64,000 bases of DNA from Anaerolineae bacterium (GTDB taxonomy: Bacteria > Chloroflexota > Anaerolineae > Aggregatilineales > UBA3940), in contig JAFGLD010000096.1 in assembly GCA_016928235.1 (NCBI GenBank), forward strand, positions 3,006-67,005, written 5' to 3'. Made by a program: the position numbers and the translations under genes. This document shows, piece by piece, positions 15,846 through 38,911 of the stretch. Positions within the stretch are counted from its first letter, which is position 1. The number at the start of each line of letters is the position of its first letter. The notes beneath the pieces are model-generated. The model saw only the letters and a program-made list of their open reading frames with translations. It was not told the origin of the DNA and did not search any database.

Positions 15846-16868
15846 CTACTCTGCGCGCGGCTTACGCCGGTAGAGCCTGGTGACAACGGAGAAACGGTTG
15901 GGGATAATGGGGTCGTTAATACCTATTGGCAGCCCACCAAGTGGACTGGGCATAGGGATGGGATGGTAGACATAGTCGCGGATGCCACTATCCCAGCGCG
16001 ACAGCAAGACACTGAGCACCAGAACAAACACACCCACCCACTGGACGATCTCCATCCGTTCGCCCAGCCAGGTAAAAGCGACCAATAGCGTTACTCCCAT
16101 CTCTGCGACATTCAACAAAATCGTCTGAAGGCTGCCCAGATTTCTGACTCCCATAAACAGTGTCACTCGCGATAGCGCCGTAACAGCTGTGATACCCAGA
16201 ATATAGTACCAGCCTATCGAAGCAGTAGGCCCCCACTGCAAAACAAAGAAATTGCCATAAACCAGACGGGCAACAAGCACCGTTGCTCCCATCCAGGTCA
16301 ACGCATAAAGTGACATGGTGGGGGCGGGCATTTCATACATAACACGCTGGCTAATAACGATATGCAAAGCATAAGAAAAAGCAGATCCGACCATCAAGCC
16401 AACGCCTATCCAATGTATCGCTGACTGGTGGTAACCACCGGTCAGCAGATAGACAGCGACGAGTGCCAACAAAGCGCGGACGATGCTGAGCCCGGATATG
16501 CGTTGTCCATACATACGCACCAACAACATGGCGAAGATCACATACAACATGTTGAGGAGCTGTACCAGCGAGGCGTTATCCAGCAAGAGCAAGCCGTTGT
16601 AGTAAAGAAGCGAGCCTAATCCGTTAATCCCCCCAACAGCTAACGTTCCTAAGAGCCCTGCCGGGAAAATATAGATGTACTTCCGGAAGAACAACCCGTA
16701 CACTACCCACAATATCAGCGCGGCCAGACAAGTTCGTAACGTAACCAGCGTAAACGGATCGATGCCTGTGTGGAGGGCCAGTTTGCCAAAGATCGGCGCA
16801 AAACCCATGACAAGAGGCGTCATGAAGGCTGCAATTGCACCATCAATCCGATGCCTGGATTGGCTCAC
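15846..16868 (-). CDS. DMT-superfamily (EamA-like) transporter
   Basis: About 10 predicted TM helices in two EamA-like halves, followed by a ~50-aa hydrophilic tail. Confidence 0.7.
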   Translation of the reverse strand: MSQSRHRIDGAIAAFMTPLVMGFAPIFGKLALHTGIDPFTLVTLRTCLAALILWVVYGLFFRKYIYIFPAGLLGTLAVGGINGLGSLLYYNGLLLLDNASLVQLLNMLYVIFAMLLVRMYGQRISGLSIVRALLALVAVYLLTGGYHQSAIHWIGVGLMVGSAFSYALHIVISQRVMYEMPAPTMSLYALTWMGATVLVARLVYGNFFVLQWGPTASIGWYYILGITAVTALSRVTLFMGVRNLGSLQTILLNVAEMGVTLLVAFTWLGERMEIVQWVGVFVLVLSVLLSRWDSGIRDYVYHPIPMPSPLGGLPIGINDPIIPNRFSVVTRLYRRKPRAE

Positions 16869-16919: not shown

Positions 16920-18581
16920 CTATCCCAATGTCTTGTCGATCAATTCCTGTAATACACCATCTTCGATCAATGAGCCTTTTTGTAATAAGCCCTGCACCTG
17001 ACCGGCCAGCCGGGCACGTTCATCGGCTGTCAGGTCCTTGGCCGTCACAATCACAACCGGCACGTCACGCAGCGACTCATCTGCTTTGAGACGATCCAGG
17101 ACGCCAAAGCCATCCATACCGGGCATCATCAGATCAAGCACAATAATATCGGGCCGGACACTCTGCACCATCTCGATACCTGCTTCGCCATCCGGAGCCA
17201 GATAGACATCCTGGACGCCATGCGCGCGCAAAATGCGCGCCATGAGCTTCGATGCGCCTGGGTCATCCTCAATAACCACCACCCGTCCCACGCGCCGATC
17301 GACCGTTTCTAACGCAGTCAGAAGTCCCTCGTGGGGAATAGCAGGCTGTGTCACAGACGCCACGTCCAGATCGCGAATCAGCTCATCACCCAGGATGTGC
17401 TTCTCGACAGGGAATGTATGGCCAGAACAATTCAACACGACCACTTCATCGGGGTCGATCATCTTCTGACGCACCATCTTAAATAAGCCGGCAAAAGCCA
17501 ATGCGGTAGCTGGTTCTACCGAGAGACCTTCAAGTTGAGCAACAGTTTTGAGCGCCTGGAAGGCTTCATCATCGTGAACCGACTCAAAGATACCCCCATG
17601 CTCCAACACTTCGTGACGCAAAACGCTATAGGCGATACCGGGAACATCGGTGGCTACAGTGGCAATACGTGTACTGGGCTTCAGAAAAGGAGGCGCTTCT
17701 TCCTGCCCGGCTTTGAAAGCCCGTACCATGGGGTCACAACCGGACGATTGGATATTAGCCAGCTTAGGAAACCCTTGAGCCAGGCCATATTGCTCCATCT
17801 CACGGAAGCCCTTCATCAGACCTATTGGGCCAAGACCACCGCTGACCGATTGAATATACCAGTCAGGCGTACGCCAAGGAATATCATTGGATGTAGGCCC
17901 ATATATCTCAGCCAGTTGCGCTGCCATCTCAAAGGCCATCGTCTTCATCGACTCTTTAGCGGCCAGGCTCTTGATGCCACGGTCAAGAAACAGCCCTTTG
18001 CTATCAGCAAAACGGGAGGCAACCTGCTTGGCCTGATCGTATGTGCCGGTGACCTTCACAAGCTCAGCGCCATAGATCGTCACCTCACGCATCTTCTCTA
18101 CCGGAACGCTGCTGATAGTAAAAACCCACATCTTGATCTTGGCTCGAGCTGCATAGGCTGCATAAGCAATCGCAACGTTACCGGTACTGGCAACAACAGC
18201 CTCTTTGACACCGATCTCGCGCATTGTAGAGATGGCTAAGGCAGCTTGCCGATCTTTGAAAGAGCCGGTTGGCCCCTGGCGCTCATCCTTGATGTAGAGA
18301 TGGCGCAGCCCTAACATAGCCGCCAAATTTTCAGAACGAAGGAGTGGTGTACCGCCCTCACCCATCGATAAGATGTTGGCATCATCGCGGATTGGCAAAA
18401 GCTCGCGGTAACGCCACATTGTGTCGGGGCGATTTCTCAACACAGCAGGCCACGGTAGAGGCGTATCAAGCTCGTACTCTGCTTCCAGATAGGTACCTCC
18501 ACATACAGGGCATGCTACCAATGGGTAGGTATATTCTTCGCTATGATGGCAGTTGGCACATCGTGTAATGATTCGTTTCAT
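16920..18581 (-). CDS. threonine-synthase-like PLP enzyme with an N-terminal zinc ribbon and a C-terminal receiver (REC) domain
   Basis: Zinc ribbon CANCHH...CPVCGG. PLP-lysine motif PTGSFKDRQA and a tryptophan-synthase-beta-like fold (ASTGNVAIAYAAYAA, SGGLGPIG). The C-terminal 120 aa (16920-17282) are a complete REC domain: VVVIEDD...IIVLDLMMPGMDG...VVIVTAK. Confidence 0.8.
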   Translation of the reverse strand: MKRIITRCANCHHSEEYTYPLVACPVCGGTYLEAEYELDTPLPWPAVLRNRPDTMWRYRELLPIRDDANILSMGEGGTPLLRSENLAAMLGLRHLYIKDERQGPTGSFKDRQAALAISTMREIGVKEAVVASTGNVAIAYAAYAARAKIKMWVFTISSVPVEKMREVTIYGAELVKVTGTYDQAKQVASRFADSKGLFLDRGIKSLAAKESMKTMAFEMAAQLAEIYGPTSNDIPWRTPDWYIQSVSGGLGPIGLMKGFREMEQYGLAQGFPKLANIQSSGCDPMVRAFKAGQEEAPPFLKPSTRIATVATDVPGIAYSVLRHEVLEHGGIFESVHDDEAFQALKTVAQLEGLSVEPATALAFAGLFKMVRQKMIDPDEVVVLNCSGHTFPVEKHILGDELIRDLDVASVTQPAIPHEGLLTALETVDRRVGRVVVIEDDPGASKLMARILRAHGVQDVYLAPDGEAGIEMVQSVRPDIIVLDLMMPGMDGFGVLDRLKADESLRDVPVVIVTAKDLTADERARLAGQVQGLLQKGSLIEDGVLQELIDKTLG

Positions 18582-18879
18582 TGGCTTGGACCTATCTAAG
18601 TTACATTCGATATGCAAGTTTTTGATACTGAGGGCAAATCGATGTGAATCCCGCAATATGTAAGCAAGTCATCCATTATCATTTCTTGCCGCATGCCCGA
18701 GATCGGGTCGGCGATCCCTCGTAGGGATGGGGCCGAGCCTATTCGTCGACAGCATCATGACCAGTCGTACAAGACATCGCACATCATTTTGTTACATCAA
18801 TACCAACCGGCTCATCAGGAAAGGGTGCAGGGCTTTATCCGCTCCGCACCCCTGATAACACCGTCATACAATCCCTATT

Positions 18880-21800
18880 TTATTTAGGAACTTTTTCCCA
18901 GGTAGTCGCCAATGCTGCCAGAAGCTGTTCCGGAGTAGCTTCGTTCTTGTTTAAATAAGCCGTTAACGATTCTCCCAATCGTTCCATAGCATCCCCGGGA
19001 AGCTCGCGGGATGAAACGATCAAGATAGGTAAATTTCGCGTCTGCTCCTGCGTCCGCAGTGAAGCCAGAAGACCATAGCCATCCATATCAGGCAGGTCCA
19101 GATCGACAATGAGTATGTCGGGCTTTTGTTCATGGAGCGTTTGTAGCCCTTCGTGTCCAAGCCCAACAACATTGGCATTATATCGCTGAGTGAGCAAGAG
19201 AGTCTCTTGCATGGTTCGAGCATATTGTTCATTACCATCGAGTATCAAGACAGATAATGCCTTCTCAACCATACCTCCCAATGCCCGGTTCAATGCCTCC
19301 AGCAGATCTTCCTCGATGATCGGTTTGACGAGATATTCCGTTACACCGACATTATTGGCTCGTTGGCGCGCATCTTCGATGCTACAGATGACGATGGGAA
19401 TATCGCGCGTGTCCTCTGCCTGTTTGAGTTGGTCGATGGCCACCCAGCCATCCACGTTCGGCATGTTGAGATCGAGCAGAATAGCGACCGGCTGAAACTC
19501 ACGCACCCTGTTGAGCAGATCGCCGGCGTTGCTTAAACCGACAATGGCATAACCCTGCTTTTCCAGATAGCGGCTGTATAAATCGAGAACGCCAGGCTCA
19601 TCGTCCACCGCCAACACCACTGGACGACCATCATCATTCTTTGGCAGGAACACAATATCAGAGCTCTCCTGCTGTTGTGCATGAAGCGGAACAGTAAAAC
19701 TGAATATTGAGCCGACACCTTTCTCGCTCTCGACCCACATCCGTCCGCCATGCATCTCGATGAACTGCCGGGAGATTGCCAAACCCAGACCCGTACCACC
19801 GACCTGTCGCGTTGTCGAGCCATCGACCTGACTGAAAGCCTGAAAGAGCTTGCCGATATCCTCTTGAGAAATACCGATGCCTGTATCGACAACATCGACC
19901 TGAACACGGGACGGCTCACCTGTCTCCGGGTCGTAATCCTTATGTGAAGCTCGAATAGTAATGCTACCTTCATGGGTAAATTTTGCGGCGTTAGCCACCA
20001 GGTTAAGCAAGACGCCCCGTACACGGACCGGGTCACCATACACATTGGGTAGATCGGCCTCTATCTCCTTGAAGATCTGGATCGGCTTATCACTGATCAA
20101 GCCCTGTCCGGTAGCCATCACGCCATCAACGATCTCAGGCAAGGAGATGTAATCCGGCTGAATCTCCATCTTGCCGGCTTCAATCTTGGAGATGTCGAGA
20201 ATATCGTTGATAAGCCCTAAAAGATGCTGGCCACTTTGATAGATGGTGTTCAGGTCCTGGGATTGCAGATCGCTGAGCGGGCCGTCGATCCCTTTCAACA
20301 TCACGCGGGAGAAACCAATGATCGAATTCAGCGGTGTACGGAGCTCATGGCTCATGTTGGCCAGGAACTGGCCCTTGAGCTTATCAAGCTCACGTAGCTG
20401 ATCGTTGGCTCGTGTGATCTGGTCGAGCAATCGGGCATTCTGGATAATGGCTGTCAGCGTGCTGGATGCCGCCTCCAAAAGACGCAGCTCCCGATCCCCA
20501 AAGACATTCACTTCCGAGCTGGCGAGCATCAGCACACCGATCGATTCGGCGCCTGCGCGGAGTGGAACGATCAGAGCTGCCTGAATGCGATCATCGAACT
20601 CACCATAGCGAGGATCTGTTTGTGTGTTAGGCGTGACCAGGGGAATACCATCCTCGGCTACCATACCAATGACAGTCTCTCCCAATTTGATCCGTGGATA
20701 GCGCACAGCAATGTCACGACCAAAGCCAACCGCAGCATGTGGCTCGAGTGTGTTGTCATCAGGACTAACCAGGTGGATGATGGCTGCCTCTGCCCCAGGT
20801 ATCTCGGTGAGGAGGATATTGGTTACGTTGGAGAGAGCTTCATCCAGTTCAGTCGTTGCGACAGCGGCTCTGGTGATATTGAACAGGAAACCAAGCTCAG
20901 ATGCGCGCCGCTGCGCTTCATCGAGCAGTTCAGCGTTACGGATCTTAACAGAGATATAGGCGGCCAGTGTGGTCAGTTGCCGGACATGTGTCTCGTTATA
21001 AGCGAATTCTCTATCCGGATCCTGGATGCTGATAACACCGATGATCTCATCACCTAGCAGGAGTGGAACAGCCAACAAGCTCTTAGGTATTGTTCCACTG
21101 ATTTGCGCGTCCAGTTTTTGAGCATTTTCTTGGACATTCTCATTAATCAGGAGAACCTCTCTGGTCTTCAGAACATAATTGGTCAGACCTTGTCCAATCG
21201 GGATAGCACCAATGGGAGGTATACGCTGACCGTTCTCCATGAAGATGGGAAGCTGGATCATGTCTTTTTCGGCAGACACAGCCAGGAAACCGTGCTGCGC
21301 GCCAAAAGTATGCTGCAATTGCGTAGCAACAACATCGTAGAGATCGCTTAAAGTCTCAGCGCGGGAAACGGCCTGAGAGATCAAGTTGACAGTGGTTAGC
21401 TCTGCCACACGATCCTGAATTTCCCGGAAGAGTTGGGCGTTTTCAAGCGTCACAGAAATCTGGTCAGCCAGCGACTGCAGGATAACCTGAGCCTCGGTAT
21501 CGAAAGCCTTGACTTGTGTACTCTGCACATCCAAAGCGCCAATAATCCGGTCACCCGTTCTGAGCGGTACGGCCATCTCGGCCCGCGTATTAGGTAATAG
21601 CTCATTGCGCTGGTGAATGGGATCTGTGTCGGTATCATGGATGATCACAGGTTCTCCTTGAGCCGTAACCTGCCCAATTACCGATTGCGACCCGACAGCC
21701 AATCTATGTTCACGCTGCAACAACTCCTGACCGATATCACCGGTGCTGGCATGCAGCATCGCCCATTCATTTGTATCATCGATCAAGAAAATCTGAGCAT

Positions 21801-24486
21801 GGTAATACCCAAACACTTCACTGATCTTATCCACCGTGAGAGGCAACAAGATATCCGGGTTGAGGATCGATGATGCAGCATGAGAGACTTCGTTGACCGC
21901 TTGCAAGCGACGGACACGCACCTGCGATTCGGAGAAGAGACGTAATCCTTCCAAAGCCGTAGCTGCCTGGTCGGCGATAGCTTCAAAAAAGCGCTGATCA
22001 GACTCCGCAAAGACATTAGTGTTATGCTGGCTATGTAGTAGCAACCAACCAAGAATACGCCCACCGGTAATCACAGGAAACTGGGCCATCGACTTAACAT
22101 TAAACCGCCTCAGAGTATCTCTGACATGATCTTCAAGAATGGCTGTTTCTGTGTTGTTGACAACCAGGCCGCTGCCTATCTCGTCCAGATCATATTCCAG
22201 CAATAATGGAAACTGCTCTACAAGCATACGCTCAGGCAGCGCCATCACCTGATCATTGGGATCTCCGGACCAGCGACCCAACAATTGCAACCATCGTCCT
22301 CCCTCTGTCATGCCGGATTCGTCGACCAGAACCACCATGGCACGGTCGATCGTACTACCGCGCATGGCGCCCAGCAGGACATTCGTGAGATTAGGTATGG
22401 AGTCAGCTGCCGCAATCTGCTGGCTTGCTTCGTAGAGTCGGTTGGACTCCATCAGAGAGGCCTGTGTCTGTTCAAAAAGACGCGCATTTTCGATGGCAAG
22501 CGCGACACGATCCAGCACCTGTCCAACCAATAGTCTGTCATCCTCAGAGATAACCTGGCCTGGTTGCAATCGTGTAGCCAATTCGCCGATAACCTCGCCA
22601 CGTAGCGCAATCGGCATATTCACGCGCTGTCCCCTGCCGCCATCTTCGTCATCAACCGGTGACAGTGGACGAACATCGCTCAAGTCATATTTGAAACCGA
22701 CTATTTCAGGCGATTGTTTGCGCCGTGAGACATAGGAGTCCCAGCTCTCGCGGGTAAGCGCCTGAGTCAGTTGGAGTGATGCGGCAAGCAAACTTTCTTT
22801 CTCTTGGAACAGATGAACATTACGAAACGCTGACGCAAGCTGATCTGCAATTGTCTTAAACGCCACAATCGTCTCGTCGTCAAAAGAATCAGGATGGACC
22901 GATTGTATATCCAATGCCCCGATAATCTCATCTCCTACACGCAGAGGAACAGCCAGCTCAGCACGTGTATCCGGTAACAGATCGTTGCGTCGATGGATAG
23001 GGCTATCCTCTGTATCAAGAACAAGAATGGGATCTCCATGCATCGTTGCCTGGCCAATAACTGACTGAGAGCCCACCTGAAGCTTATGGCCACGAGAAAG
23101 CAGCTCCCGGCCAACCGCGCCTGTACTCGCTCGCAGAACAGCATATTGATGCAGGTCATCTGTCATAAAAATCTGGACATGATAGTAATCCAGACGGTCA
23201 CGAATGGTATTAATGGTTGCAGTGAGCAGGCGGTCTAGATCAGTCTCGGTCGCCAGAACACGACTGATCTGGGATGTGATCTCAAGCTGTTGGTTGCGCT
23301 CAGTAATGGTTTTCTGGTGTTTTTCAAGCATTGAACGGGTGCGGCCAAGCATACGATTGAACGCATCTGCCAGCCGACTAAACTCAAGCGCATCGGTCAG
23401 GGGAGCCTCGATATCCATCTCGCCCCCGGCTGCCTGCATGGCAACTGCATATAGACGTTCGACAGGAGAAATAATGCGCCGCGCAAAGAAAACGGCCAAA
23501 ATGATCGCCAACAGGGCGATTATGGCGCCCAAAATTAACTGAGATCCCAGAATACTCTCTACTTCGCCGAGAACCGTTCCAGTATTTGTCGCAACGATGA
23601 GCGACATGTGCAGTGGCGCAATCCAACGATAAACGCCATAGACATGCTGCCCCCGATAGTCGACCCATTCACCTGAACCATCTTGTCCTGACAGCGCCGT
23701 GGCAACGATCTCTTCTTTGGCGAGATCGCCTGCAGCTTGCGGTGGCGGCATCACATAACGTCTTCCCTCCTCTACCAGATAATAATAGCTGGTCTCCGTC
23801 TGAGGAAGATCAAGCAAAATGACCAGAAGGTTTGAGAGCGTGACACGCCCACATAAGACACCAGTGGGAGAAGATGAGCCCTCCGGCTGCACAGCCACAG
23901 CAAAGTATAGACTTGGAACATCCTTCTCATAAGGATCTGCGATTGGCCCAACTGTTACCACTGTATCCGGATTCTGCAAGGCCGCTTGCAACCAAGGCTC
24001 TCCACTAAGATCCGGGTTGGCGAGGTTAAAAACAGGATCGTTGCCACCCAACAGCACTCCGTCAAGATCGACAAGAAACACACGGTCGTAAAGCCCTTGC
24101 ACGCTGGCAAGATAAGGGGTAGCAAGCGCGCTAATTCGTTCTGTAAAGGCTCGTTGCACCTCGGCCTTAGTGGTCGGATCTGCGTCTGGAGGCAAAGTAG
24201 TCAGCTGCTCGATCATAGGAGAAAGAGAAGGGTTGTCTCGGATTTTCAACAACTCAGTTTGACGTTCGGATGCCCATTTTTCTAGTACCGCCGTCTGGAT
24301 ATCCGCCATAGTGTCTAACTGGGTTATAGCCTTTGCTCGCTCGCGAGTCAGGTGGGTTATATTGCTAATTGCAATAAGCCCGGCTATCGGCAGCAAGATC
24401 AGAACAAGAAACACGATCAACAATTGTGTTCTTAAACGTCCCTGTCGTGGTATGAATCGGTTCTGCAATCGTCTTGTGCTACTCAT
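18880..24486 (-). CDS. multi-GAF hybrid sensor histidine kinase (TM - extracytoplasmic domain - TM - HAMP - about 7 GAF - HisKA - HATPase_c - REC - REC)
   Basis: 1868 aa. H-box FLANMSHELRTPLNSI (about 20341-20385). G-boxes DTGIGI / GGTGLGLAISR. REC1 about 19276-19623 (LAVDDE...LLDLNMPNVDG). REC2 about 18976-19257 (ILIVDLDLPDMDG). Repeated GAF cores include YYH(V/A)QIF...VGSQSVIGQ...LLP(D/N)TRAE(L/M)AVPL...IIGALD(I/V)QS. The start overlaps the upstream stop (ATGAGTAG). Confidence 0.9.
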   Translation of the reverse strand: MSSTRRLQNRFIPRQGRLRTQLLIVFLVLILLPIAGLIAISNITHLTRERAKAITQLDTMADIQTAVLEKWASERQTELLKIRDNPSLSPMIEQLTTLPPDADPTTKAEVQRAFTERISALATPYLASVQGLYDRVFLVDLDGVLLGGNDPVFNLANPDLSGEPWLQAALQNPDTVVTVGPIADPYEKDVPSLYFAVAVQPEGSSSPTGVLCGRVTLSNLLVILLDLPQTETSYYYLVEEGRRYVMPPPQAAGDLAKEEIVATALSGQDGSGEWVDYRGQHVYGVYRWIAPLHMSLIVATNTGTVLGEVESILGSQLILGAIIALLAIILAVFFARRIISPVERLYAVAMQAAGGEMDIEAPLTDALEFSRLADAFNRMLGRTRSMLEKHQKTITERNQQLEITSQISRVLATETDLDRLLTATINTIRDRLDYYHVQIFMTDDLHQYAVLRASTGAVGRELLSRGHKLQVGSQSVIGQATMHGDPILVLDTEDSPIHRRNDLLPDTRAELAVPLRVGDEIIGALDIQSVHPDSFDDETIVAFKTIADQLASAFRNVHLFQEKESLLAASLQLTQALTRESWDSYVSRRKQSPEIVGFKYDLSDVRPLSPVDDEDGGRGQRVNMPIALRGEVIGELATRLQPGQVISEDDRLLVGQVLDRVALAIENARLFEQTQASLMESNRLYEASQQIAAADSIPNLTNVLLGAMRGSTIDRAMVVLVDESGMTEGGRWLQLLGRWSGDPNDQVMALPERMLVEQFPLLLEYDLDEIGSGLVVNNTETAILEDHVRDTLRRFNVKSMAQFPVITGGRILGWLLLHSQHNTNVFAESDQRFFEAIADQAATALEGLRLFSESQVRVRRLQAVNEVSHAASSILNPDILLPLTVDKISEVFGYYHAQIFLIDDTNEWAMLHASTGDIGQELLQREHRLAVGSQSVIGQVTAQGEPVIIHDTDTDPIHQRNELLPNTRAEMAVPLRTGDRIIGALDVQSTQVKAFDTEAQVILQSLADQISVTLENAQLFREIQDRVAELTTVNLISQAVSRAETLSDLYDVVATQLQHTFGAQHGFLAVSAEKDMIQLPIFMENGQRIPPIGAIPIGQGLTNYVLKTREVLLINENVQENAQKLDAQISGTIPKSLLAVPLLLGDEIIGVISIQDPDREFAYNETHVRQLTTLAAYISVKIRNAELLDEAQRRASELGFLFNITRAAVATTELDEALSNVTNILLTEIPGAEAAIIHLVSPDDNTLEPHAAVGFGRDIAVRYPRIKLGETVIGMVAEDGIPLVTPNTQTDPRYGEFDDRIQAALIVPLRAGAESIGVLMLASSEVNVFGDRELRLLEAASSTLTAIIQNARLLDQITRANDQLRELDKLKGQFLANMSHELRTPLNSIIGFSRVMLKGIDGPLSDLQSQDLNTIYQSGQHLLGLINDILDISKIEAGKMEIQPDYISLPEIVDGVMATGQGLISDKPIQIFKEIEADLPNVYGDPVRVRGVLLNLVANAAKFTHEGSITIRASHKDYDPETGEPSRVQVDVVDTGIGISQEDIGKLFQAFSQVDGSTTRQVGGTGLGLAISRQFIEMHGGRMWVESEKGVGSIFSFTVPLHAQQQESSDIVFLPKNDDGRPVVLAVDDEPGVLDLYSRYLEKQGYAIVGLSNAGDLLNRVREFQPVAILLDLNMPNVDGWVAIDQLKQAEDTRDIPIVICSIEDARQRANNVGVTEYLVKPIIEEDLLEALNRALGGMVEKALSVLILDGNEQYARTMQETLLLTQRYNANVVGLGHEGLQTLHEQKPDILIVDLDLPDMDGYGLLASLRTQEQTRNLPILIVSSRELPGDAMERLGESLTAYLNKNEATPEQLLAALATTWEKVPK

Positions 24487-26680: not shown

Positions 26681-26825
26681 TACGCAACCTCCCAGTATAC
26701 CTAACGAGACATCTCACTCATATTTCACGAGGACAAAGGCCTGATGACAATTCCTTAGGTTCTGTTGACATTCGTGCTCAAAATCCGCGCCCTGGATATA
26801 CAGAAATGTCAACAAAACCTAGAAA

Positions 26826-32726: not shown

Positions 32727-32989
32727 TCAAGAGCCCGCAAAAAAATTCTTATTATGCCACCGAGACGAGCCTGCATTCAACGATAATCTTTACCCTGGTT
32801 CATGATGTTAATCCCCCTGTTAGGGCATGAACGGGCAGTGATGAGATTGTGTTGTTTGTATTTTGCTCAAAAAGCGCACTTTCTCTAACAAGCATACACC
32901 AGTTTTAATACCTGTTGAATCGCGGGCCTTTTGCCACCATTTCCACATAAGCAAACGTGCTGTGAACAGAGCCACGCCTTCTAAATGGG

Positions 32990-34648
32990 TTACTTTTCGT
33001 CTTTCTTCTTTTCCGTGTCGTACTCCATAACCAGATGAACAAAACTCGTCGGCGTTTCCAGCGCATGGCTAGCCGTTCTGGCAACAATACGAAGAAGCGT
33101 GTTCAAGTCAGTGGTAGACTGAAGCTCCGCAGAGAGGCGGCTCATCACCTCCTCACGCTCGGCATGATGCTGAGCTTGCTCACCCAGGCGTGTGCTGTCC
33201 AGCGCCATCGCGACACGCTCCGCTACCGCTTCAAGCATGTTCTTAGTTTCTTCATCGGGCTCACGGTCACCCCGCGGTGTCAGATCCAACATCCCGATCG
33301 TCTCACCTCGAACCGTTAAGGGGAGCGTCACTGTCCCGCCACCAGGCTGTCCGCCCTCGGAACCCTCAGAGGCTTCGATTTGCGGTTTGGCCTCACCCAC
33401 ATCATCGACTTTGAGCGGCCTGACCCCTTGCTGACTGGCTTCATAACCCAGAGGCGATTCGCCGGGACGGTCTGATAGAAATTTACGCCATGATTGCCCG
33501 GTAAGCTGCCGATTCAGGGACTCGATATCTTGCAGGTCGCGCTGGGCACGCTCAAACAAATGCACATTCTCAATTGCAATAGCGATCTGATCTGCCATGG
33601 CCTGGAAACCGGAGATATCCGATGCCGCAAAAGCTTCGACGCTGGTGCTGTGAATATCGACCACACCAATTACCTGATTTTCCACTCGCAGCGGCAAGGC
33701 TATCTCAGAGCGGGTACCGGACAGCAAATCGTTGTGTTGATACGCCGGATAAACACTGGTATTGGGGATGATAACTGTCTCGCCGCTTTGGATAACCTGA
33801 CCAATCACTGATTGGGATTTGATGGGTATCTGGTATAAGCGCGAGACCAGTTCCTGCCCTATTGAGCCTGTGCCGGCCTTAATGACCGCGCTCCTCTTTC
33901 CTTCATCGATCAGAAGGATTTGTGCATAGTAAACATCGAATCGCTCAGAGATCAGATCGACAGCTTGTTTGAGCAAATGATCCAGGTTGCGAGTGCCTGT
34001 AATCGTACGCCCAATCTCGGCCACAGCCATGATTTTTCGAGCATCACCATCTGGAGCTTGATCCGTCTGATGCAAATCAGATATTTGCTGCTGGATCAAT
34101 CGCAAATCACGTTCCCTCAAAAGCGATGTTCCTACCGCCATGGCAGACACAATAACCGTGATCAGGAGTGAGAAATAGTACTGTCCTATGTTGGATTGTG
34201 GAATGAGCACAAGACCAAGCCCGACTCCCAAATTGGCGATCACAACGGACACGATTGTTGTTCGCGCGGGTAAAAGGAGCATGGCAAACAAGATCGGGAC
34301 CAAGACAAAAAGCGAAGCCTGAGATAGATTAACATGGTCGCGAAGGATATACAGATTGGCCAGCACCAGAGCCAGTTCCCCAAACACCAGTAAACCGGCT
34401 CCCAGTTTTGCCTGGCGTATACGACTTAACAGGTAGACAAGTAGGAAGAGAATGGGATGTGGTAAGGCTAAAACAGCCAGCGAGGTGAAGGCCAAACCAA
34501 TGGCAACCAACACACTTACAAGAAACAACACCAGTGACAATCGGGATAACAGGCGTGCCCGCTGTCTTTGTATGGGTTCCGTTACACTGGAATGTGGCTC
34601 TGTTAGCCGTTGCCACAGGGTTTGAGTGGTAAATTCTTGCATGCTCAT
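32990..34648 (-). CDS. output-less sensor: about 6 TM helices - GAF - GAF - truncated GAF stub
   Basis: 552 aa. GAF core FDVYYAQILLIDE...KSQSVIGQVI...HNDLLSGTRSEIALPL...VIGVVDIHS. Confidence 0.85.
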   Translation of the reverse strand: MSMQEFTTQTLWQRLTEPHSSVTEPIQRQRARLLSRLSLVLFLVSVLVAIGLAFTSLAVLALPHPILFLLVYLLSRIRQAKLGAGLLVFGELALVLANLYILRDHVNLSQASLFVLVPILFAMLLLPARTTIVSVVIANLGVGLGLVLIPQSNIGQYYFSLLITVIVSAMAVGTSLLRERDLRLIQQQISDLHQTDQAPDGDARKIMAVAEIGRTITGTRNLDHLLKQAVDLISERFDVYYAQILLIDEGKRSAVIKAGTGSIGQELVSRLYQIPIKSQSVIGQVIQSGETVIIPNTSVYPAYQHNDLLSGTRSEIALPLRVENQVIGVVDIHSTSVEAFAASDISGFQAMADQIAIAIENVHLFERAQRDLQDIESLNRQLTGQSWRKFLSDRPGESPLGYEASQQGVRPLKVDDVGEAKPQIEASEGSEGGQPGGGTVTLPLTVRGETIGMLDLTPRGDREPDEETKNMLEAVAERVAMALDSTRLGEQAQHHAEREEVMSRLSAELQSTTDLNTLLRIVARTASHALETPTSFVHLVMEYDTEKKKDEK

Positions 34649-34682
34649 ATTGTCAATCCCTGGTGAATCTTGTTATGACATC

Positions 34683-36698
34683 TCATAGCTCGCTCGTATC
34701 CTTGCCGGCCGATGATAAGCTACCAGCATCTCCTGATGCCGACTTATCGGAGGGAAATAAGCGAACTTTGATATCATACTCGTCCAATGCCGAGATCAGA
34801 GTACGTACCGTTGTCTCCAACACGTCATTGATATCTGTTGCTCGCTGGAGCTGTGCCGTCATATTGCTGACTATCTGTTCACGTGCCGCCGACTTTTTGA
34901 TTTGCTCCAGCAATTTTAGATTCTCAGAAGCACTTGAGACCTGTACGGCAACATTCTCGAACAGTTCTCGCTGTTCACGCGTCAGATCAGGATACAGATC
35001 GGCCTTGAGACCTTTTTCCGCCAGTTGATCACGGGAGAGCCCCAACACAGCGGCCAACTCGGCAATTGCCACATTGTTAATCTCATCGGTTGTCTCCGCA
35101 CTGTGAAGGCGATTAGAAATATTGAGCAAAATCTGCTCATAACCAACCACCTGCTGAGTACGGGCCAACAACAGTTGGGCATTGAGCCCTAGAGCCGTCT
35201 GATCGGCCAGACTGCGACATAGACGTGCCTGATCGCCCGAGAAAGTTTGTCCCTGCCTGCCCTCGAAGAGAATAGTCCCTAACCAGGTAGCACTAGAGCT
35301 AAGTGGAATCAGCATTAAGGCATGTACATTTTCACGGACATAAATAGTTCGCAGATCGACACTCAAGCGCGGATCGGTTTGAAGATCGTTGAATACGAGG
35401 TTGGATCGAGATTGGGGAAATTGCATCAGTATGGGTATCTGAGATGGCAAATAACGTATCGGCGGCGATTGGATTATCAATTGGCCATGTTGCCATACTG
35501 CAGTAGTCTCGATGTATTCCATGTCCCTAAGCGGATCAGGGCCTATAAGATAAATGGTGATGTGCTCGGATCCGCTTACATCTGCCATCTTCTCAAGAAC
35601 AGTTGCATAAATCTCGTCCACGTGTTGGGCAGCGCTGATTGCCAATGAGACGCTATAGAGCATCGTGGTTTCATCAAGAGACGATTCTAAATGCTTGATG
35701 GTACGCATGGCTTGCAGTGCCGCTGCCATTTGCACCGCTGCCTGTTCACAGATAGGGATATCATCTGGTAAAAGGGTGATATCGGTATGCCCTCCCACAT
35801 TCAACGTCCCTAAAATCTGGTCTCCAACGACCAGCGGTGCCACAATTAGCTTATATACGTCAATCGACTGCCAAAGTGAGCTATCAGCCCAACCGCCTAG
35901 TTCTTCGAAAAGGATTGCTGCGTCACGTGATATCGCCTGTTTGATCCGCGAGCCCGCTAATGGTATACGAGCAGGCATTTGTTCACCCTTGATGAGTATC
36001 AACTCGGCATCCGGGTGATCAGAGGTAATCAATGCTATGCTGATGTGGCTAGCTGGAAGAAACTCGTTTAGCCTGGTAGCTACTATTTCTCCCAGATTCT
36101 CGAAGTCAGATACATCCGACAGATCATGTGCCAGGTCGGCGGCTAAGGTAGCCTGTGCAGTTCGCCGATTGAGAATGTTGTCCAGTTCTCGATTTTCTAA
36201 AACAGTCCCAATATGGCAAGCCAGTATTTCCAGATGGCGTATCTGATCAATGTTATATTGATGCGGCTTATGCATGCCAAGTACCAGATAGCCCGTAATA
36301 TGCTGACGCCTGTTTAATGGAAGAATGATCAGGCTGGCGGCCTGAAGCACACTTTCCGCATAAGGCTTGACTGATAAGAGGGAATTATCAATCTGATCGA
36401 TGTCAGATATCACAACCGGGTGATCATCAACCAGCCGCCTGATGGTATCAGGCAGAGGTTCAGCATGTGTCAACCCATCACGATCCCAGTCTACGATAAC
36501 TCTAGCAGTAATCAAACCATCTTGACTGATGTTTTCCCCGATCAAGATGATGCAGTCAGCATCCGGCATGACATGCTGGCGGATAATTGCTACGATCTCT
36601 TCTGGGCTGTTGATGCTGGTAATAGCACGCATCGCCTGAAAGATCGATGCACAACGATCTAATAGAGCATCTTCGGAGGTAGAGATAGTACCACTCAT
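34683..36698 (-). CDS. soluble multi-GAF protein (3-4 divergent GAF domains) ending in the same truncated GAF stub
   Basis: 671 aa with no TM segment. GAF-like cores ITGYLVLGMHKP, ILGTLNVGGH and WLGTILFEGRQG. The C-terminal stub is shared with the five downstream paralogues. Confidence 0.75.
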   Translation of the reverse strand: MSGTISTSEDALLDRCASIFQAMRAITSINSPEEIVAIIRQHVMPDADCIILIGENISQDGLITARVIVDWDRDGLTHAEPLPDTIRRLVDDHPVVISDIDQIDNSLLSVKPYAESVLQAASLIILPLNRRQHITGYLVLGMHKPHQYNIDQIRHLEILACHIGTVLENRELDNILNRRTAQATLAADLAHDLSDVSDFENLGEIVATRLNEFLPASHISIALITSDHPDAELILIKGEQMPARIPLAGSRIKQAISRDAAILFEELGGWADSSLWQSIDVYKLIVAPLVVGDQILGTLNVGGHTDITLLPDDIPICEQAAVQMAAALQAMRTIKHLESSLDETTMLYSVSLAISAAQHVDEIYATVLEKMADVSGSEHITIYLIGPDPLRDMEYIETTAVWQHGQLIIQSPPIRYLPSQIPILMQFPQSRSNLVFNDLQTDPRLSVDLRTIYVRENVHALMLIPLSSSATWLGTILFEGRQGQTFSGDQARLCRSLADQTALGLNAQLLLARTQQVVGYEQILLNISNRLHSAETTDEINNVAIAELAAVLGLSRDQLAEKGLKADLYPDLTREQRELFENVAVQVSSASENLKLLEQIKKSAAREQIVSNMTAQLQRATDINDVLETTVRTLISALDEYDIKVRLFPSDKSASGDAGSLSSAGKDTSEL

Positions 36699-36859
36699 AA
36701 TTCCTCCAAAACAGGCGTCTTACAGCCCATATAATGGCGGTAATCTCCTGTCATAACAGGCACACATGATTATAGTCAAAACGGGCATTCGTGCTTGAAT
36801 GTTGCACAATGCTCGGCAAGCTGGTCGGGGGCAAGACTGTTGGTAGACCCGATTCAAAG

Positions 36860-38038
36860 CTACCGTATTTCCCAGACAGGCTCACCATTCAAGACTCGCC
36901 TGATCTGATCGGGAAAACGATCGGGATCGAGAGGCTTACCCAAGAAGCCGTCAAATCCGGATTCTTTGGCTCGTTGCATCTGTTCAACACTGGCTTCAGC
37001 AGTAACCGCAACCACCAATGTGTCTTTGAGACGGCTGTTGCCTCGGACTTTTTCAAGCGCCTGGAATCCATCTTCGTACGGCAAGCGGATGTCCATCAAG
37101 ATGAGGTCGATTCGCGGAAGGGTATCGGCAAATTCGACAACTTGCCAGCCGGAGGTCTTCCACTCGCAACGCTGGACACCCATATACGCCAGCATACGCG
37201 CGATCAACACGAAATTGGGCACATTATCCTCAACCACTAGCACATGAGCCTGCGTTGGATCGATCGGAGTGTGTGGTGGTTTCTCTGTTGGTACATCCTG
37301 TTTGGGTTGCTCTACCGGCCTGGCTTCCTCCGCCGGTTTAGCCTCGACAACCGGTTTTGATCCCGCCTCTGCCGGCCTGGCATCCCCTGTCGGTTTAGCC
37401 TCAACGTCTGGTTTTGATCCCGCCTCTGCCGGCCTGGATTCCTCCGTCGACTTAGCCTCAACCGCTGGTTTTGATCCCGCCTCTGCCGGCCTGGATTCCT
37501 CCGTCGACTTAGCCTCAACCGCTGGTTTTGATCCCGTCTCTGCCGGCCTGGATTCCCCTGTCGGTTTAGCCTCAACTGCTGGTTTTGATCCTGCTTCTGC
37601 CGGCCTGGCCTCCTCCGTCGGTTTGGATTCTTCTACTGCCGGTTTTACTTCATCTGCCGGCTTAGCATCAGCAGATGACTGGGATTCCTCCACGGGCTTG
37701 GCATCAGCCGATTTAGAAGACTCAGCTGGCTTAGACGCTTCGGCCTCAGGCTGCTGGGGCGGTGAGGGCGTATCCGTTGCCCCCTTTTGGCCAGTTGACG
37801 GGGTAGTCGATTTTGAAGCTTCCTTTGCCTCCGAGTCTGGCTGTGTGGCAGGATCGGACACCTTCTCTGTTTTCCCCTGCTCGATTGACTCGGCTTTCTC
37901 AACCGACTGGGCCTGTTCAGTCTTCGGCTCCGTTTGTCCAGTCTCTACGGCTGGATTGGCCTGTTTTTCTGGTGGAGACTGGCCAATATCAGTTGATGAT
38001 TCGTTTGAGTTTGTCGGCTTATCTGAGATCATAATCAT
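36860..38038 (-). CDS. single-domain response regulator: ~260-aa low-complexity tandem-repeat N-terminus plus a C-terminal REC domain
   Basis: REC: VLVVEDNVPNF...DLILMDIRLPYEDG...VVAVTAEA...GFLGKP. The N-terminus is P/A/E/K/S-rich and contains about five 19-aa repeats (AEAGSKPAVEAKSTEESRP). Confidence 0.8.
   Translation of the reverse strand: MIMISDKPTNSNESSTDIGQSPPEKQANPAVETGQTEPKTEQAQSVEKAESIEQGKTEKVSDPATQPDSEAKEASKSTTPSTGQKGATDTPSPPQQPEAEASKPAESSKSADAKPVEESQSSADAKPADEVKPAVEESKPTEEARPAEAGSKPAVEAKPTGESRPAETGSKPAVEAKSTEESRPAEAGSKPAVEAKSTEESRPAEAGSKPDVEAKPTGDARPAEAGSKPVVEAKPAEEARPVEQPKQDVPTEKPPHTPIDPTQAHVLVVEDNVPNFVLIARMLAYMGVQRCEWKTSGWQVVEFADTLPRIDLILMDIRLPYEDGFQALEKVRGNSRLKDTLVVAVTAEASVEQMQRAKESGFDGFLGKPLDPDRFPDQIRRVLNGEPVWEIR
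37315..37640. repeat. 57-nt tandem repeat, about 5.5 copies, inside the coding sequence
   Basis: The GGTTTTGATCC anchor recurs at 37353, 37410, 37467, 37524 and 37581, an exact 57-nt period. The two central copies are nearly identical. Confidence 0.9.
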
Positions 38039-38131
38039 CTGACCCTTGGTGCAGTTACTTCTTTGATCGGCGTTTTGTGGTTAAACAGGAAGTTACTCTG
38101 GCCTTCTATTTCGGACATCAAGCATCCCTTC

Positions 38132-38911
38132 TCAATTCTTAGTGCTCTCAGGATTTTGTGTCTGAGAGCCTTGATTATGGGTAGGCGACACTTGAGAGCC
38201 CTGCGATTGAGCATCTTGAGGTTGAGAGCTTTTTTCTTGCGTTTCGGTTGGCTGCAAGCCTGGAGTTGGTGGGTCAGCAGGTCGACCAGGCACGTTCGGT
38301 GCCTGGATAGGCTGAACGATCGGGCTTGGCGATCCGGCTGATTGGATACCAGATTCGGGCGGACTGGCAGGTTGGGCACCCGGGGTTGGCGAGCCGGCAG
38401 GTTGGACACCAGAACCTGGCGGACTGGCAGGTTGAGCACCCGGGGTTGGCGGACTGGCAGGTTGAGCAATTGGGCTCTGCGGACCGGCAGGTTGGGTATC
38501 CAGACTTGTTGATGAGCTTGCCGGCTGAGGAGTCTGACCATCTTTCCTCAAATGCTTCTCGATCTGTTTTGGAAGGTTATCCACATCTATCGGCTTAGGT
38601 ATGTAACCATTACACCCGGCATCCATAGCCTTTTTAATATCACCTTCCATAGCATTGGCCGTCAGTGCCACTATAGGGACATGTGCCCCACCGGTCGCCT
38701 TGCGCAATCGATCGGTACATTCGTACCCATCAATGTCGGGCAGATTGATATCCATCAAGACAAGATCGGGATGGGTACTCAATGCTAACTCCAGCCCCTT
38801 GGTTCCATTTTCCGCCTCGATGACAGTGAAGCCTTCTGCCTCTAACACACGCTTGATCAAGATGCGGTTATCAAAGTTGTCCTCAATGTAGAGAATGCGT
38901 TTCCCACTCAT
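38132..38911 (-). CDS. single-domain response regulator: N-terminal REC plus a P/Q/A/S-rich decapeptide-repeat tail
   Basis: REC: KRILYIEDNFDN...DLVLMDINLPDIDG...IVALTANA...GYIPKP. The tail is AQPASPPTPG / AQPASPPGSG / VQPAGSPTPG / AQPASPPESG and so on. There is no DNA-binding or enzymatic domain. Confidence 0.85.
   Translation of the reverse strand: MSGKRILYIEDNFDNRILIKRVLEAEGFTVIEAENGTKGLELALSTHPDLVLMDINLPDIDGYECTDRLRKATGGAHVPIVALTANAMEGDIKKAMDAGCNGYIPKPIDVDNLPKQIEKHLRKDGQTPQPASSSTSLDTQPAGPQSPIAQPASPPTPGAQPASPPGSGVQPAGSPTPGAQPASPPESGIQSAGSPSPIVQPIQAPNVPGRPADPPTPGLQPTETQEKSSQPQDAQSQGSQVSPTHNQGSQTQNPESTKN
38328..38500. repeat. 30-nt tandem repeat, about 5-6 copies, inside the coding sequence
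   Basis: GGCGGACTGGCAGGTTG(G/A)GCACCCGGGGTT-type units, read directly at a 30-nt period. Confidence 0.85.

What the first reader, a model, noticed from the sequence alone, without database searches (positions are those of the whole stretch)
16920..38911. 22-kb same-strand signalling array with many GAF sensors but only one transmitter and one enzymatic output
Seen in the sequence: eleven consecutive minus-strand genes with no intervening gene on the other strand.
- The order is REC + repeat tail, repeat head + REC, six paralogous multi-GAF proteins, an 1868-aa multi-GAF hybrid kinase (HisKA-HATPase-REC-REC), and a ThrC-like PLP enzyme fused to REC.
- Three junctions overlap: ATGAGTAG at 24479-24486, ATGTCTAG at 28600-28607, and TGATG at 30865-30869. 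One gap is only 34 nt (34649-34682).
- The six paralogues share the same GAF core but have different input modules. Two have TM / ~270-280-aa extracytoplasmic domain / TM / HAMP, three are polytopic with 6-7 TM helices, and one is soluble.
- None of the six has a kinase, cyclase, phosphodiesterase or DNA-binding motif that I can see. There is no HPt domain and no HTH regulator anywhere in the array.
Inference: the output-less sensors may feed one kinase by GAF or coiled-coil hetero-oligomerisation, giving a many-inputs-to-one-transmitter assembly. The read-out may be the REC-controlled PLP enzyme rather than transcription. I do not know of a described system with this organisation.
Basis: partly seen in the sequence, partly recalled or inferred. 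Interest (0 to 1): 0.85.

Follow-up and report, generated by a model that had tools for sequence, protein, structure and literature searches.

The report
Many-sensor, one-kinase signalling operon of Anaerolineae
This is a large gene cluster conserved across the Anaerolineae in which several membrane sensor proteins with no output of their own sit next to one kinase, a phosphorylation-controlled amino-acid-type enzyme and a transporter; I found no description of it in the literature I could search.

Summary
From 38911 down to 16920, all on the minus strand, lie two single-domain receivers, six GAF proteins with no transmitter or other output domain, one 1868-aa hybrid histidine kinase, and a ThrC-like PLP enzyme fused to a receiver. 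That is ten genes, not eleven. An EamA transporter at 15846-16868 belongs to the unit and makes eleven. The three overlaps and the 34-nt gap are exact.

New findings:
- The source is an Anaerolineae MAG. The same layout recurs in 79 species-representative Chloroflexota genomes: REC, REC, 3 to 9 or more GAF sensors, kinase, ThrC-REC, EamA.
- All six sensors end in a conserved ~65-aa helical tail, a truncated start of another GAF. I found 432 such tails in relatives.
- ThrC-REC belongs to a separate clade that lacks the threonine-synthase motif NSxNPxRxEGQKT. Even in relatives without a GAF array nearby it sits beside a kinase.

Most likely the sensors are accessory co-sensors of the one kinase, which phosphorylates the PLP enzyme. 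Synteny supports linkage; physical coupling and the enzyme's reaction are untested. I found no published description. Novelty: new variant of a known kind. Interest 0.7.

The parts
38132..38911 (-). RECa: single-domain receiver (aa 6-117) with a P/Q-rich low-complexity tail that contains a 30-nt x 4.6 tandem repeat
   Evidence: Pfam Response_reg 7.7e-28. Phospho-acceptor Asp, Thr and Lys are kept. Repeat found by TRF. Orthologues of 121-210 aa head the cluster in at least 20 loci.
36860..38038 (-). RECb: 57-nt x 5.5 repeat head (19-aa units) followed by a receiver domain (aa 266-379)
   Evidence: Pfam 9.5e-18. TRF. Orthologues are 54-90% identical and always a separate gene after RECa, with a median gap of -4 nt.
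34683..36698 (-). G1: soluble multi-GAF protein with the conserved tail and no output domain
   Evidence: Pfam finds GAF only. No TM segment. Tail HMM scores 103 bits at aa 586-655. It holds the first position after the two RECs in relatives, where it is 590-1600 aa.
32990..34648 (-). G2: polytopic membrane domain, GAF1, mini-GAF2, tail
   Evidence: Tail at aa 478-545.
30867..32726 (-). G3: six-TM membrane domain, GAF1, mini-GAF2, tail. Its stop overlaps the G4 start (TGATG).
   Evidence: Tail at aa 514-590.
28600..30867 (-). G4: TM, dCache-like periplasmic domain, TM, HAMP, GAF, mini-GAF2, tail. Its stop overlaps the G5 start (ATGTCTAG).
   Evidence: Pfam HAMP 8.5e-9 and a weak dCache_1 hit. 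The orthologue in L001 has dCache_1 on record. Tail at aa 652-716.
26826..28607 (-). G5: polytopic membrane domain (weak MASE6 hit), GAF1, mini-GAF2, tail
   Evidence: Tail at aa 502-570.
24479..26680 (-). G6: TM, all-helical ~250-aa periplasmic domain, TM, HAMP, GAF1, mini-GAF2, tail. Its stop overlaps the HK start (ATGAGTAG).
   Evidence: Pfam. AlphaFold models. 36 full-length orthologues at 38-77% identity support the GTG start. Tail at aa 662-731.
24488..24697 (-). Example of the conserved C-terminal tail, here in G6. The equivalent tails are G5 26898-27104, G4 28720-28914, G3 30957-31187, G2 33014-33217 and G1 34734-34943.
   Evidence: Alignment of the six paralogues. 432 C-terminal tails in 79 loci, ending a median of 10 aa before the stop, with consensus ALENARLlEEsQrrAeRE..i.eIsakI..s.d.d.ILqTAv.ELgraLGa..v.vql. 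Modelled as two helices with pLDDT about 90. The HMM scores 82-104 bits at these tails against 18 bits or less at the HK's inter-GAF junctions.
18880..24486 (-). Hybrid histidine kinase: TM, dCache, TM, HAMP, five GAF, HisKA (H-box SHELRTPL), HATPase, REC, REC. Its front end (aa 332-709) is homologous to G6 and G3.
   Evidence: Pfam. BLAST gives G6 38.6% identity over 360 aa, and 50.8% for a second GAF1 copy. The cluster-specific GAF1 motif occurs twice. REC1 is intact; REC2 has DG in place of DD.
16920..18581 (-). ThrC-like PLP enzyme: Zn-ribbon, then PALP fold with the Lys of SFKDRQ, fused to a C-terminal receiver domain (553 aa from Met26)
   Evidence: Pfam PALP 3.7e-60 plus REC 2.2e-19. 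Solved threonine synthases match at 1e-40, but their NSxNPxRxEGQKT and GNAGN motifs are replaced. All 120 best homologues are PALP plus REC. It follows a kinase in L083-L085 and L087.
15846..16868 (-). EamA/DMT-family transporter (8-10 TM) directly downstream.
   Evidence: Pfam EamA 1.4e-16. Weak TIGR00950 'carboxylate/amino acid/amine transporter' hit. Present within two genes after ThrC-REC in 17 of 17 informative loci, and in L083 and L084 even when inverted.

Best explanation
This is one copy of a signalling operon conserved across the class Anaerolineae. Its order is two stand-alone receivers, a variable battery of transmitter-less sensor proteins (six here), one hybrid histidine kinase, a receiver-fused ThrC-like PLP enzyme, and an EamA-type transporter.

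Shown:
- The sensors are duplicates of the kinase's own sensory front end. Each has a variable membrane or periplasmic input, sometimes a HAMP, a cluster-specific GAF1, a reduced GAF2, and the first helices of a third GAF kept as a conserved tail.
- The genes are tightly packed or overlapping.
- The kinase has an intact H-box, and all five receiver domains keep the phospho-acceptor Asp.
- There is no HPt domain and no DNA-binding domain in the cluster.

Inferred:
- The sensors act as accessory co-sensors. Each reads a different signal and modulates the single kinase by direct contact. The contact could be mixed dimers or a higher-order array along the HAMP/GAF coiled-coil spine, or docking through the tail.
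- The kinase then phosphorylates the receiver of the PLP enzyme and switches its activity. The output is therefore metabolic: making or removing an amino-acid-like compound that the EamA protein moves across the membrane.
- The two small receivers and the kinase's own receivers act as phosphate sinks or connectors.
For: Paralogy of G2-G6 with each other and with HK aa 332-709 and 843-1241 comes.

Synteny:
- L002 keeps the same nine genes in the same order (G1-G6, HK, ThrC-REC, EamA) at 34-68% identity.
- In 80 loci, 71 have at least 3 consecutive tail-bearing sensors, with a median of 6.
- Gaps between the sensors have a median of 5 nt, and 145 of 343 overlap.
- The next labelled gene after the array is a kinase in 31 loci; the other 47 arrays end at the locus edge (28) or in an unclassified GAF ORF (19).
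- ThrC-REC follows the kinase in 23 of 24 informative cases.
- EamA follows ThrC-REC in 17 of 17 informative cases.
- REC-REC comes first in at least 20 loci.

Reverse test: four ThrC-REC relatives chosen without reference to the sensors all sit beside a kinase.

Tail: 432 copies with a signature of their own, modelled confidently as helices.

Receiver catalytic residues are kept. The ThrC-REC family is 57-93% identical with an invariant PLP lysine.

Precedents exist for stand-alone GAF proteins that control a kinase encoded in the same operon: NreA with NreB (PMC8199190) and CvnF8 with CvnA8 (PMC13343842).
Against: - No result here shows contact between any sensor and the kinase, or phosphotransfer to any receiver.
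- Promoter and terminator scans were at background level, so the operon structure is inferred only from spacing. Gaps of 145-298 nt in this window allow internal promoters.
- In L084 and L085, ThrC-REC pairs with a small REC-HisKA-HATPase protein and has no GAF array nearby. The array is therefore not required for the enzyme module.
- A hybrid kinase without an HPt is unusual for transfer to separate receivers.
- The enzyme's reaction is unknown.
Confidence: 0.5

Rival explanations
1. The sensors do not act through the kinase. They signal on their own, for example by binding the two stand-alone receivers or a partner encoded elsewhere through the conserved tail, or by buffering a common GAF1 ligand. 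On this view they sit next to the kinase only because they arose from it by tandem duplication.
For: The tail is a conserved module of its own, scoring 82-104 bits against 18 or less at the HK junctions. It could bind something other than the kinase. REC-REC always heads the array. ThrC-REC works with a different small kinase, without an array, in L084 and L085.
Against: Order, orientation and overlapping stop/start codons with the kinase are kept across orders of Anaerolineae at 30-50% protein identity. That is far longer than passive tandem duplicates normally stay together.
Confidence: 0.2
2. The sensors are negative regulators. They are truncated copies of the kinase front end that form mixed dimers with it and leave the DHp/CA half unpaired, so each stimulated sensor titrates kinase activity down. 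This is a sub-form of the main model with the opposite sign.
For: G6 and G4 have the same TM, sensor, TM, HAMP, GAF1, GAF2 layout as HK residues 1 to about 760, and stop inside what is the next GAF in the HK. Histidine kinases of this type need a dimeric DHp; this rests on established knowledge and was not tested here.
Against: G2, G3 and G5 have polytopic inputs without a HAMP, and G1 is soluble. They cannot mirror the kinase's membrane part. No interaction data exist.
Confidence: 0.15
3. ThrC-REC is simply the cell's threonine synthase. The system tunes threonine supply to environmental inputs, with EamA as a threonine/homoserine-type exporter, rather than making a special product.
For: The best matches are threonine synthases: PDB 1UIM at 1e-40 and NCBIfam PRK08197 at 260 bits. 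Its 57-93% conservation is typical of a core enzyme. JGI names it threonine synthase. From my own knowledge, plant threonine synthase is allosterically regulated through an extra domain, and RhtA, an EamA-family protein, exports threonine.
Against: It scores below both NCBIfam cut-offs: 260 against 303, and 155.9 against 167.1. The motif NSxNPxRxEGQKT, present in the four bacterial solved threonine synthases (NSLNSLRLEGQKT in the Arabidopsis enzyme), is RGIKSLAAKESMKT here, and GNAGN is SGGLGP. These changes are fixed across the whole fused clade. From memory of the Thermus structure, these positions bind the substrate phosphate.
Confidence: 0.25
4. The six genes are decaying remnants of kinases, or silent cassettes for recombination into the kinase gene, and have no function as proteins.
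For: They resemble the 5' part of the kinase gene and lie directly upstream of it.
Against: Each has one-to-one full-length orthologues in many genomes at 30-80% identity, all ending at the same conserved tail. The paralogues are only 26-41% identical to each other, which is too diverged for recombination.
Confidence: 0.02

Closest known systems
NreA-NreB-NreC of Staphylococcus, a stand-alone GAF nitrate receptor that regulates an operon-encoded kinase (PMC8199190)
   Same: A GAF protein with no output domain, encoded with the kinase, is the sensory input.
   Different: NreA is a single soluble 1-GAF protein. Here there are 3 to 9 or more proteins, mostly membrane-bound and multi-domain, each with a signature tail. 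NCBIfam NreA scores are 15-17 bits against a cut-off of 175. The output in NreABC is a DNA-binding regulator, not an enzyme.
CvnF8-CvnA8 of Streptomyces conservons (PMC13343842)
   Same: A GAF accessory protein forms a complex with its cognate kinase and stimulates its autophosphorylation. Such accessory proteins supply sensing.
   Different: There it is one single-GAF protein per system, it occurs only when the kinase lacks its own sensor, and the downstream partner is a small GTPase module. Here the kinase keeps its own dCache sensor and the sensors are its paralogues.
Stressosome (RsbR paralogues, RsbS, RsbT kinase) and chemoreceptor arrays (many MCPs with CheA). Comparison from my own knowledge.
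   Same: The logic is the same: several paralogous sensors with variable input ends and one conserved C-terminal module converge on a single kinase.
   Different: No STAS, MCP-signal, CheW or CheA domains are present. The conserved module is a mini-GAF plus a helical tail.
Multikinase networks such as GacS with RetS, LadS and PA1611. From my own knowledge.
   Same: Sensor proteins modulate one central kinase by direct heteromeric contact.
   Different: Those partners are themselves complete kinases and are scattered in the genome. Here the partners have no transmitter and lie in one array.
Receiver-fused enzymes (CheB, PleD, RpfG) and class I threonine synthases (1UIM, 2ZSJ, 2D1F, 6CGQ, 1E5X)
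   Same: A REC domain controls a fused catalytic domain. The catalytic fold and the PLP lysine match threonine synthase.
   Different: I found no description of a REC-fused fold-type-II PLP enzyme in the literature searched. The REC is C-terminal, and the threonine-synthase signature motifs are replaced.

Membership tests
Two-component system (histidine kinase plus response regulator) | HisKA with the phospho-accepting His, plus an HATPase_c catalytic domain | tested here: met
   Pfam HisKA 5.3e-22 and HATPase_c 1.9e-28 in the 1868-aa protein. The H-box SHELRTPL is visible in the translation.
Two-component system (histidine kinase plus response regulator) | Receiver domains with the acidic pocket, phospho-acceptor Asp, Thr/Ser and Lys | tested here: met
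   Alignment with CheY shows all five REC domains keep Asp57, Thr/Ser87 and Lys109 equivalents. HK REC2 has DG in place of DD.
Two-component system (histidine kinase plus response regulator) | Phosphotransfer from this kinase to these receivers | not testable with these tools
   Needs in vitro phosphotransfer profiling.
Multi-step phosphorelay (hybrid kinase, HPt, response regulator) | An HPt domain or protein | tested here: not met
   No HPt model hit in any of the 11 proteins at E<=0.01. An HPt encoded elsewhere in the genome cannot be excluded.
Threonine synthase (EC 4.2.3.1) | Fold-type-II PLP domain with the Schiff-base lysine | tested here: met
   PALP 3.7e-60. SFKDRQ aligns with the GSFKDR of five solved threonine synthases.
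Threonine synthase (EC 4.2.3.1) | Score above the curated family cut-offs | tested here: not met
   PRK08197 260 bits against a cut-off of 303, and TIGR00260 155.9 against 167.1. NCBI names it only 'pyridoxal-phosphate dependent enzyme'.
Threonine synthase (EC 4.2.3.1) | Signature NSxNPxRxEGQKT and GNAGN loops. By my recollection of the Thermus structure these bind the substrate phosphate. | tested here: not met
   Replaced by RGIKSLAAKESMKT and SGGLGP in the HMMER alignments to 1UIM, 2ZSJ, 2D1F, 6CGQ and 1E5X. The replacement is conserved in 110 fused homologues and in the nearest 50%-identity clusters. The canonical motifs appear only in hits at 35-38% identity.
Threonine synthase (EC 4.2.3.1) | Conversion of O-phosphohomoserine to threonine | not testable with these tools
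   Needs an enzyme assay or thrC complementation.
Accessory GAF sensor of a kinase (NreA or CvnF type) | GAF protein without an output domain, encoded in the kinase's operon | tested here: met
   for domain content. for adjacency, overlap and conservation.
Accessory GAF sensor of a kinase (NreA or CvnF type) | Sequence membership in the NreA family | tested here: not met
   NF038250 scores 15.8-17.3 bits against a cut-off of 175.
Accessory GAF sensor of a kinase (NreA or CvnF type) | Physical complex with the kinase that alters its activity | not testable with these tools
Needs pull-down and kinase assays.
Chemoreceptor array or stressosome | MCP-signal domain with CheA/CheW, or STAS domains with RsbT | tested here: not met
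   None of these Pfam families hit any protein in the cluster.

The most novel reading that the evidence does not exclude
The cluster is a self-contained chemical communication circuit of filamentous Anaerolineae.
- The receiver-gated ThrC-like enzyme makes a non-proteinogenic amino acid.
- EamA exports it.
- The cluster-specific GAF1 domain (motif N-E-L-L-P-D-T-R-S-E) reads the same compound back. This domain is present in four of the six sensors and twice in the kinase, and nowhere else in the window.

Many environmental inputs would then be integrated with a shared self-made signal. The truncated-GAF tail would be a new assembly module that ties the sensors and the kinase into one array.
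Probability: 0.1. Interest if true: 0.9.

Novelty: new variant of a known kind. Interest (0 to 1): 0.7.

Why it matters
Anaerolineae are abundant in sediments, digesters and wastewater, but they are hard to culture and their signalling is almost unstudied. This cluster takes up 20 kb or more in many of their genomes and is kept across orders, so it probably controls something central.

It offers three testable things:
- A natural case of many transmitter-less sensors converging on one histidine kinase.
- A conserved ~65-aa tail that may be a new coupling module.
- A response regulator whose output is a PLP enzyme of an uncharacterised ThrC-like clade, paired with a transporter. The read-out would be a metabolite rather than transcription.

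If the enzyme's product is a signal, this would be a new route to cell-cell or intra-filament communication.

Tried and rejected
- Exact look-ups of the window's ThrC-REC ORF and of P0001 found no record. P0121 gave only a 4.6-kb Logan contig.
- Promoter and terminator scans were no better than shuffled sequence, so they say nothing about operon structure.
- Seven full-text literature searches found no description of the cluster or of a PALP-REC fusion. Galperin's response-regulator censuses are not held in the library.
- Foldseek on the mini-GAF plus tail model gave only weak GAF hits (E 0.02, TM 0.3-0.4), so no hidden output fold was found.
- Cluster-member names for ThrC-like relatives were only automatic 'threonine synthase' labels.
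- The context of an unfused relative in a cyanobacterial contig was uninformative.
- I considered and rejected RECa and RECb being one gene split inside the repeats. Orthologues are always two genes.
- I considered and rejected pseudogene or recombination-cassette readings, because full-length orthologues are conserved.
- I rejected the 168-aa ORF at 38035-38541 as a repeat-driven artefact inside RECa.
- I did not use the third homologue search, the metagenome scan or two fold searches. They would not have tested the open points, which are physical contact and enzyme chemistry.


Full report
**1. What is in the window.**
ORF listing and Pfam/NCBIfam scans give an uninterrupted minus-strand series:
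- RECa (38132-38911): REC plus a P/Q-rich tail.
- RECb (36860-38038): low-complexity head plus REC.
- G1-G6: six GAF proteins of 671, 552, 619, 755, 593 and 733 aa.
- A 1868-aa hybrid kinase (18880-24486): dCache, HAMP, five GAF, HisKA, HATPase, REC, REC.
- A ThrC-like PALP enzyme with a C-terminal REC (ORF 16920-18656).
- An EamA transporter (15846-16868).

The strings ATGAGTAG, ATGTCTAG and TGATG and the 34-nt gap are exact. The other gaps are 93, 161, 263, 145 and 223 nt; the last becomes 298 nt from the likely Met26 start of ThrC-REC.

A crude hydropathy scan finds no TM segment in G1, two each in G4, G6 and the HK, and four to six in G2, G3 and G5. No kinase, cyclase, phosphodiesterase, HTH or HPt model hits any G protein. 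All five receiver domains keep the phospho-acceptor Asp, Thr/Ser and Lys. The repeats in RECa and RECb are real tandem repeats, 30 nt x 4.6 and 57 nt x 5.5. Orthologues of RECa and RECb are two short separate genes, so this is not one gene split by a frameshift.

**2. Paralogy.**
- G2-G6 are 26-41% identical over about 340 aa.
- They match the kinase twice, at aa 332-709 and aa 843-1241. G6 reaches 38.6% and 50.8% identity with these two regions.
- G1 shares only the last ~70 aa and generic GAF similarity.
- The aligned core is a full GAF1, a long helix, a short second domain and a conserved C-terminal stretch.
- GAF1 carries a motif, N[ED]LL[PS]xT[RK][SA]E, found only in G2, G3, G5, G6 and twice in the kinase. 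It is absent from the unrelated GAF kinase at 52473-56966.

**3. Structure of the core.**
AlphaFold2 on full-length G6 (36 sequences, pLDDT 78.8) gives:
- a TM helix,
- an all-helical periplasmic domain,
- a second TM helix and a HAMP,
- GAF1,
- a 50-residue helix,
- a four-strand, one-helix mini-GAF,
- two terminal helices.

Modelling residues 520-733 with 72 sequences raises the confidence to pLDDT 87 and pTM 0.67. The tail helices then reach about 90, and only the last ~19 residues are coil. Foldseek against the PDB returns only weak GAF matches (E 0.02, TM 0.3-0.4). No hidden output fold was found. In sequence, the tail is the start of a further GAF that stops after its first elements. In the kinase the same position continues into a complete GAF.

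**4. Source and conservation.**
G6 is 100% identical to a protein of an Anaerolineae MAG. It has full-length HAMP-plus-GAF-only orthologues at 38-77% identity. A JGI contig of 1.3 Mb (L002, 47% identity) has the same genes in the same order, from G1 to EamA.

A scan of 185,579 species-representative genomes gave 79 loci. Nearly all are labelled Anaerolineae, Anaerolineales, Aggregatilineales, Anaerolinea, Villigracilis or Chloroflexota. A few are labelled only 'bacterium', and one 5.5-kb contig (L066) is filed under Candidatus Peribacteraceae.

My ORF calling with BLAST and HMM labelling gave these results:
- L003-L021 keep one-to-one orthologues of most or all of G1-G6 in the same order. L009 and L010 lack G2 and G3.
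- More distant genomes have other sets of up to nine or more sensors within the 10-kb flank.
- 71 of 80 loci have at least three consecutive sensors, with a median of six.
- 432 proteins end in the tail, a median of 10 residues before the stop.
- Gaps between sensors have a median of 5 nt, and 145 of 343 overlap.
- The next labelled gene after the array is a kinase in 31 loci. The other 47 arrays end at the locus edge (28) or in an unclassified GAF ORF (19).
- ThrC-REC follows the kinase in 23 of 24 informative cases.
- EamA is within two genes in 17 of 17 informative cases.
- REC-REC heads the cluster in at least 20 loci.
- The flanking genes of the window (a GlgP-like gene upstream, LplA downstream) are not conserved, so the unit runs from RECa to EamA.

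The tail HMM scores 82-104 bits at the six C-termini and 18 bits or less at the kinase's inter-GAF junctions. It is therefore a subtype of its own and not a generic GAF start.

**5. The enzyme.**
The PALP domain matches solved threonine synthases at 1e-40 and keeps the Schiff-base lysine and the STGN motif. Three points argue against a canonical threonine synthase:
- It falls below both NCBIfam threonine-synthase cut-offs.
- The motif NSxNPxRxEGQKT, present in the four bacterial solved enzymes (NSLNSLRLEGQKT in the Arabidopsis one), is RGIKSLAAKESMKT here.
- GNAGN is replaced by SGGLGP.

In Thermus numbering taken from the alignment, these changes are N154R, S155G, N157K, R160A and N188G. By my recollection these residues hold the substrate phosphate; I did not check this against the paper.

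The replacements are fixed in 110 fused homologues. A search of 1.84 billion cluster representatives shows that the nearest clusters share them. These clusters are at 45% identity or more and include PALP-REC, PALP-REC-REC and unfused 374-435-aa forms. Canonical motifs appear only at 35-38% identity. All 120 best homologues are PALP plus REC.

Relatives chosen through the enzyme alone give the same picture:
- One follows a GAF array plus a PAS kinase, with EamA next (L083).
- Two are followed by a small REC-HisKA-HATPase protein, one of them also by EamA (L084, L085).
- One PALP-REC-REC overlaps the end of a 2753-aa HAMP-GAF-PAS kinase and precedes a lone REC (L087).

The invariant pair is therefore kinase plus PLP-REC. 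The GAF array is the usual elaboration. An unfused relative lies in a cyanobacterial contig with uninformative neighbours.

**6. Mechanism.**
Shown:
- one intact kinase,
- five intact receivers,
- no HPt and no DNA-binding domain,
- sensors that are truncated copies of the kinase's sensory half,
- tight, conserved linkage across the whole unit.

Inferred:
- The sensors modulate the kinase by contact, either as mixed dimers or arrays along the HAMP/GAF spine or by docking through the tail.
- The kinase phosphorylates the enzyme's receiver.
- The enzyme's product or substrate is carried by EamA.
- The other receivers act as sinks or connectors.

Stand-alone GAF proteins that control an operon-encoded kinase are known: NreA with NreB (PMC8199190) and CvnF8 with CvnA8 (PMC13343842). 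Stressosomes and chemoreceptor arrays, which I cite from my own knowledge, show the same many-sensors-to-one-kinase logic with different domains.

The rivals are:
- sensors acting independently of the kinase,
- sensors acting as dominant-negative partners,
- the enzyme being the housekeeping threonine synthase,
- non-functional remnants, which conservation rules out.

**7. Novelty and verdict.**
Seven literature searches found nothing on this cluster, on tail-bearing GAF sensors or on a PALP-REC fusion. The library lacks many subscription papers, so this is not proof of absence.

All the parts are known domains and the frame is a two-component system. I therefore rate it a new variant of a known kind, though an unusually large, widespread and uncharacterised one.

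Interest 0.7.

Noticed in passing
window 37310-37624 and 38321-38496: The RECb head carries a 57-nt x 5.5 tandem repeat (19-aa units rich in K, P, A and E). The RECa tail carries 30/60-nt repeats (P/Q-rich). Orthologues vary from about 120 to 290 aa, so these are lineage-specific low-complexity expansions on otherwise conserved single-domain receivers.
   Followed up: partly
window 16000-42000 versus the flanks: GC content is 0.48-0.52 across the array and the GlgP-like gene, against 0.53-0.60 on both sides. The cause is unknown. The cluster itself looks vertically inherited in Anaerolineae.
   Followed up: no
window 52473-57692 (+): A separate, conventional two-component pair: a 1497-aa MEDS, PAS x4, GAF x3, HisKA, HATPase kinase followed by an OmpR-type regulator. 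Its GAFs lack the cluster-specific GAF1 motif.
   Followed up: partly
window 44640-47526 (-) and 49289-52057 (-): A MoxR-like AAA ATPase with a DUF2201 metallopeptidase/VWA protein, and a 922-aa MalT-like STAND regulator (AAA, TPR, LuxR HTH).
   Followed up: no
window 9176-10423 (-), 47814-49280 (+), 3079-3726 (-): Three sizeable ORFs (415, 488 and 215 aa) with no Pfam family at E<=0.001.
   Followed up: no
window 26585-26680 and 18582-18656: Start-codon issues. The NCBI model of G6 (701 aa) starts 32 codons downstream of the GTG start. That GTG start is supported by a GGGAGG Shine-Dalgarno sequence and by conserved N-terminal residues in 36 orthologues. Conversely, the longest ThrC-REC ORF (TTG, 578 aa) is probably 25 codons too long.
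   Followed up: yes
L084 10001-13826, L085 3032-5957, L087 1747-12532: Variant contexts of the PLP-REC enzyme. It can be followed by a 414-aa REC-HisKA-HATPase protein, with or without EamA. It can also occur as PALP-REC-REC overlapping a 2753-aa multi-sensor kinase and followed by a lone REC.
   Followed up: partly
L086 5239-6507: A 422-aa unfused member of the same ThrC-like clade (representative P0242 53% identical; P0401 in its 90% cluster) lies in a contig that also encodes a phycobilisome linker, so it is presumably cyanobacterial. The clade is therefore not confined to Chloroflexota.
   Followed up: partly
L023, L054, L074 (first gene after REC-REC): In a few relatives the position held by the soluble G1-type protein is taken by a kinase-bearing protein of about 800 aa. 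Those clusters therefore have two kinases.
   Followed up: no
window 10673-13990 and 39867-42437 (-): Glycogen or alpha-glucan genes flank the cluster on both sides: alpha-amylase family, a GT4 glycosyltransferase and a DUF3417 phosphorylase. They are not conserved next to it in relatives.
   Followed up: partly
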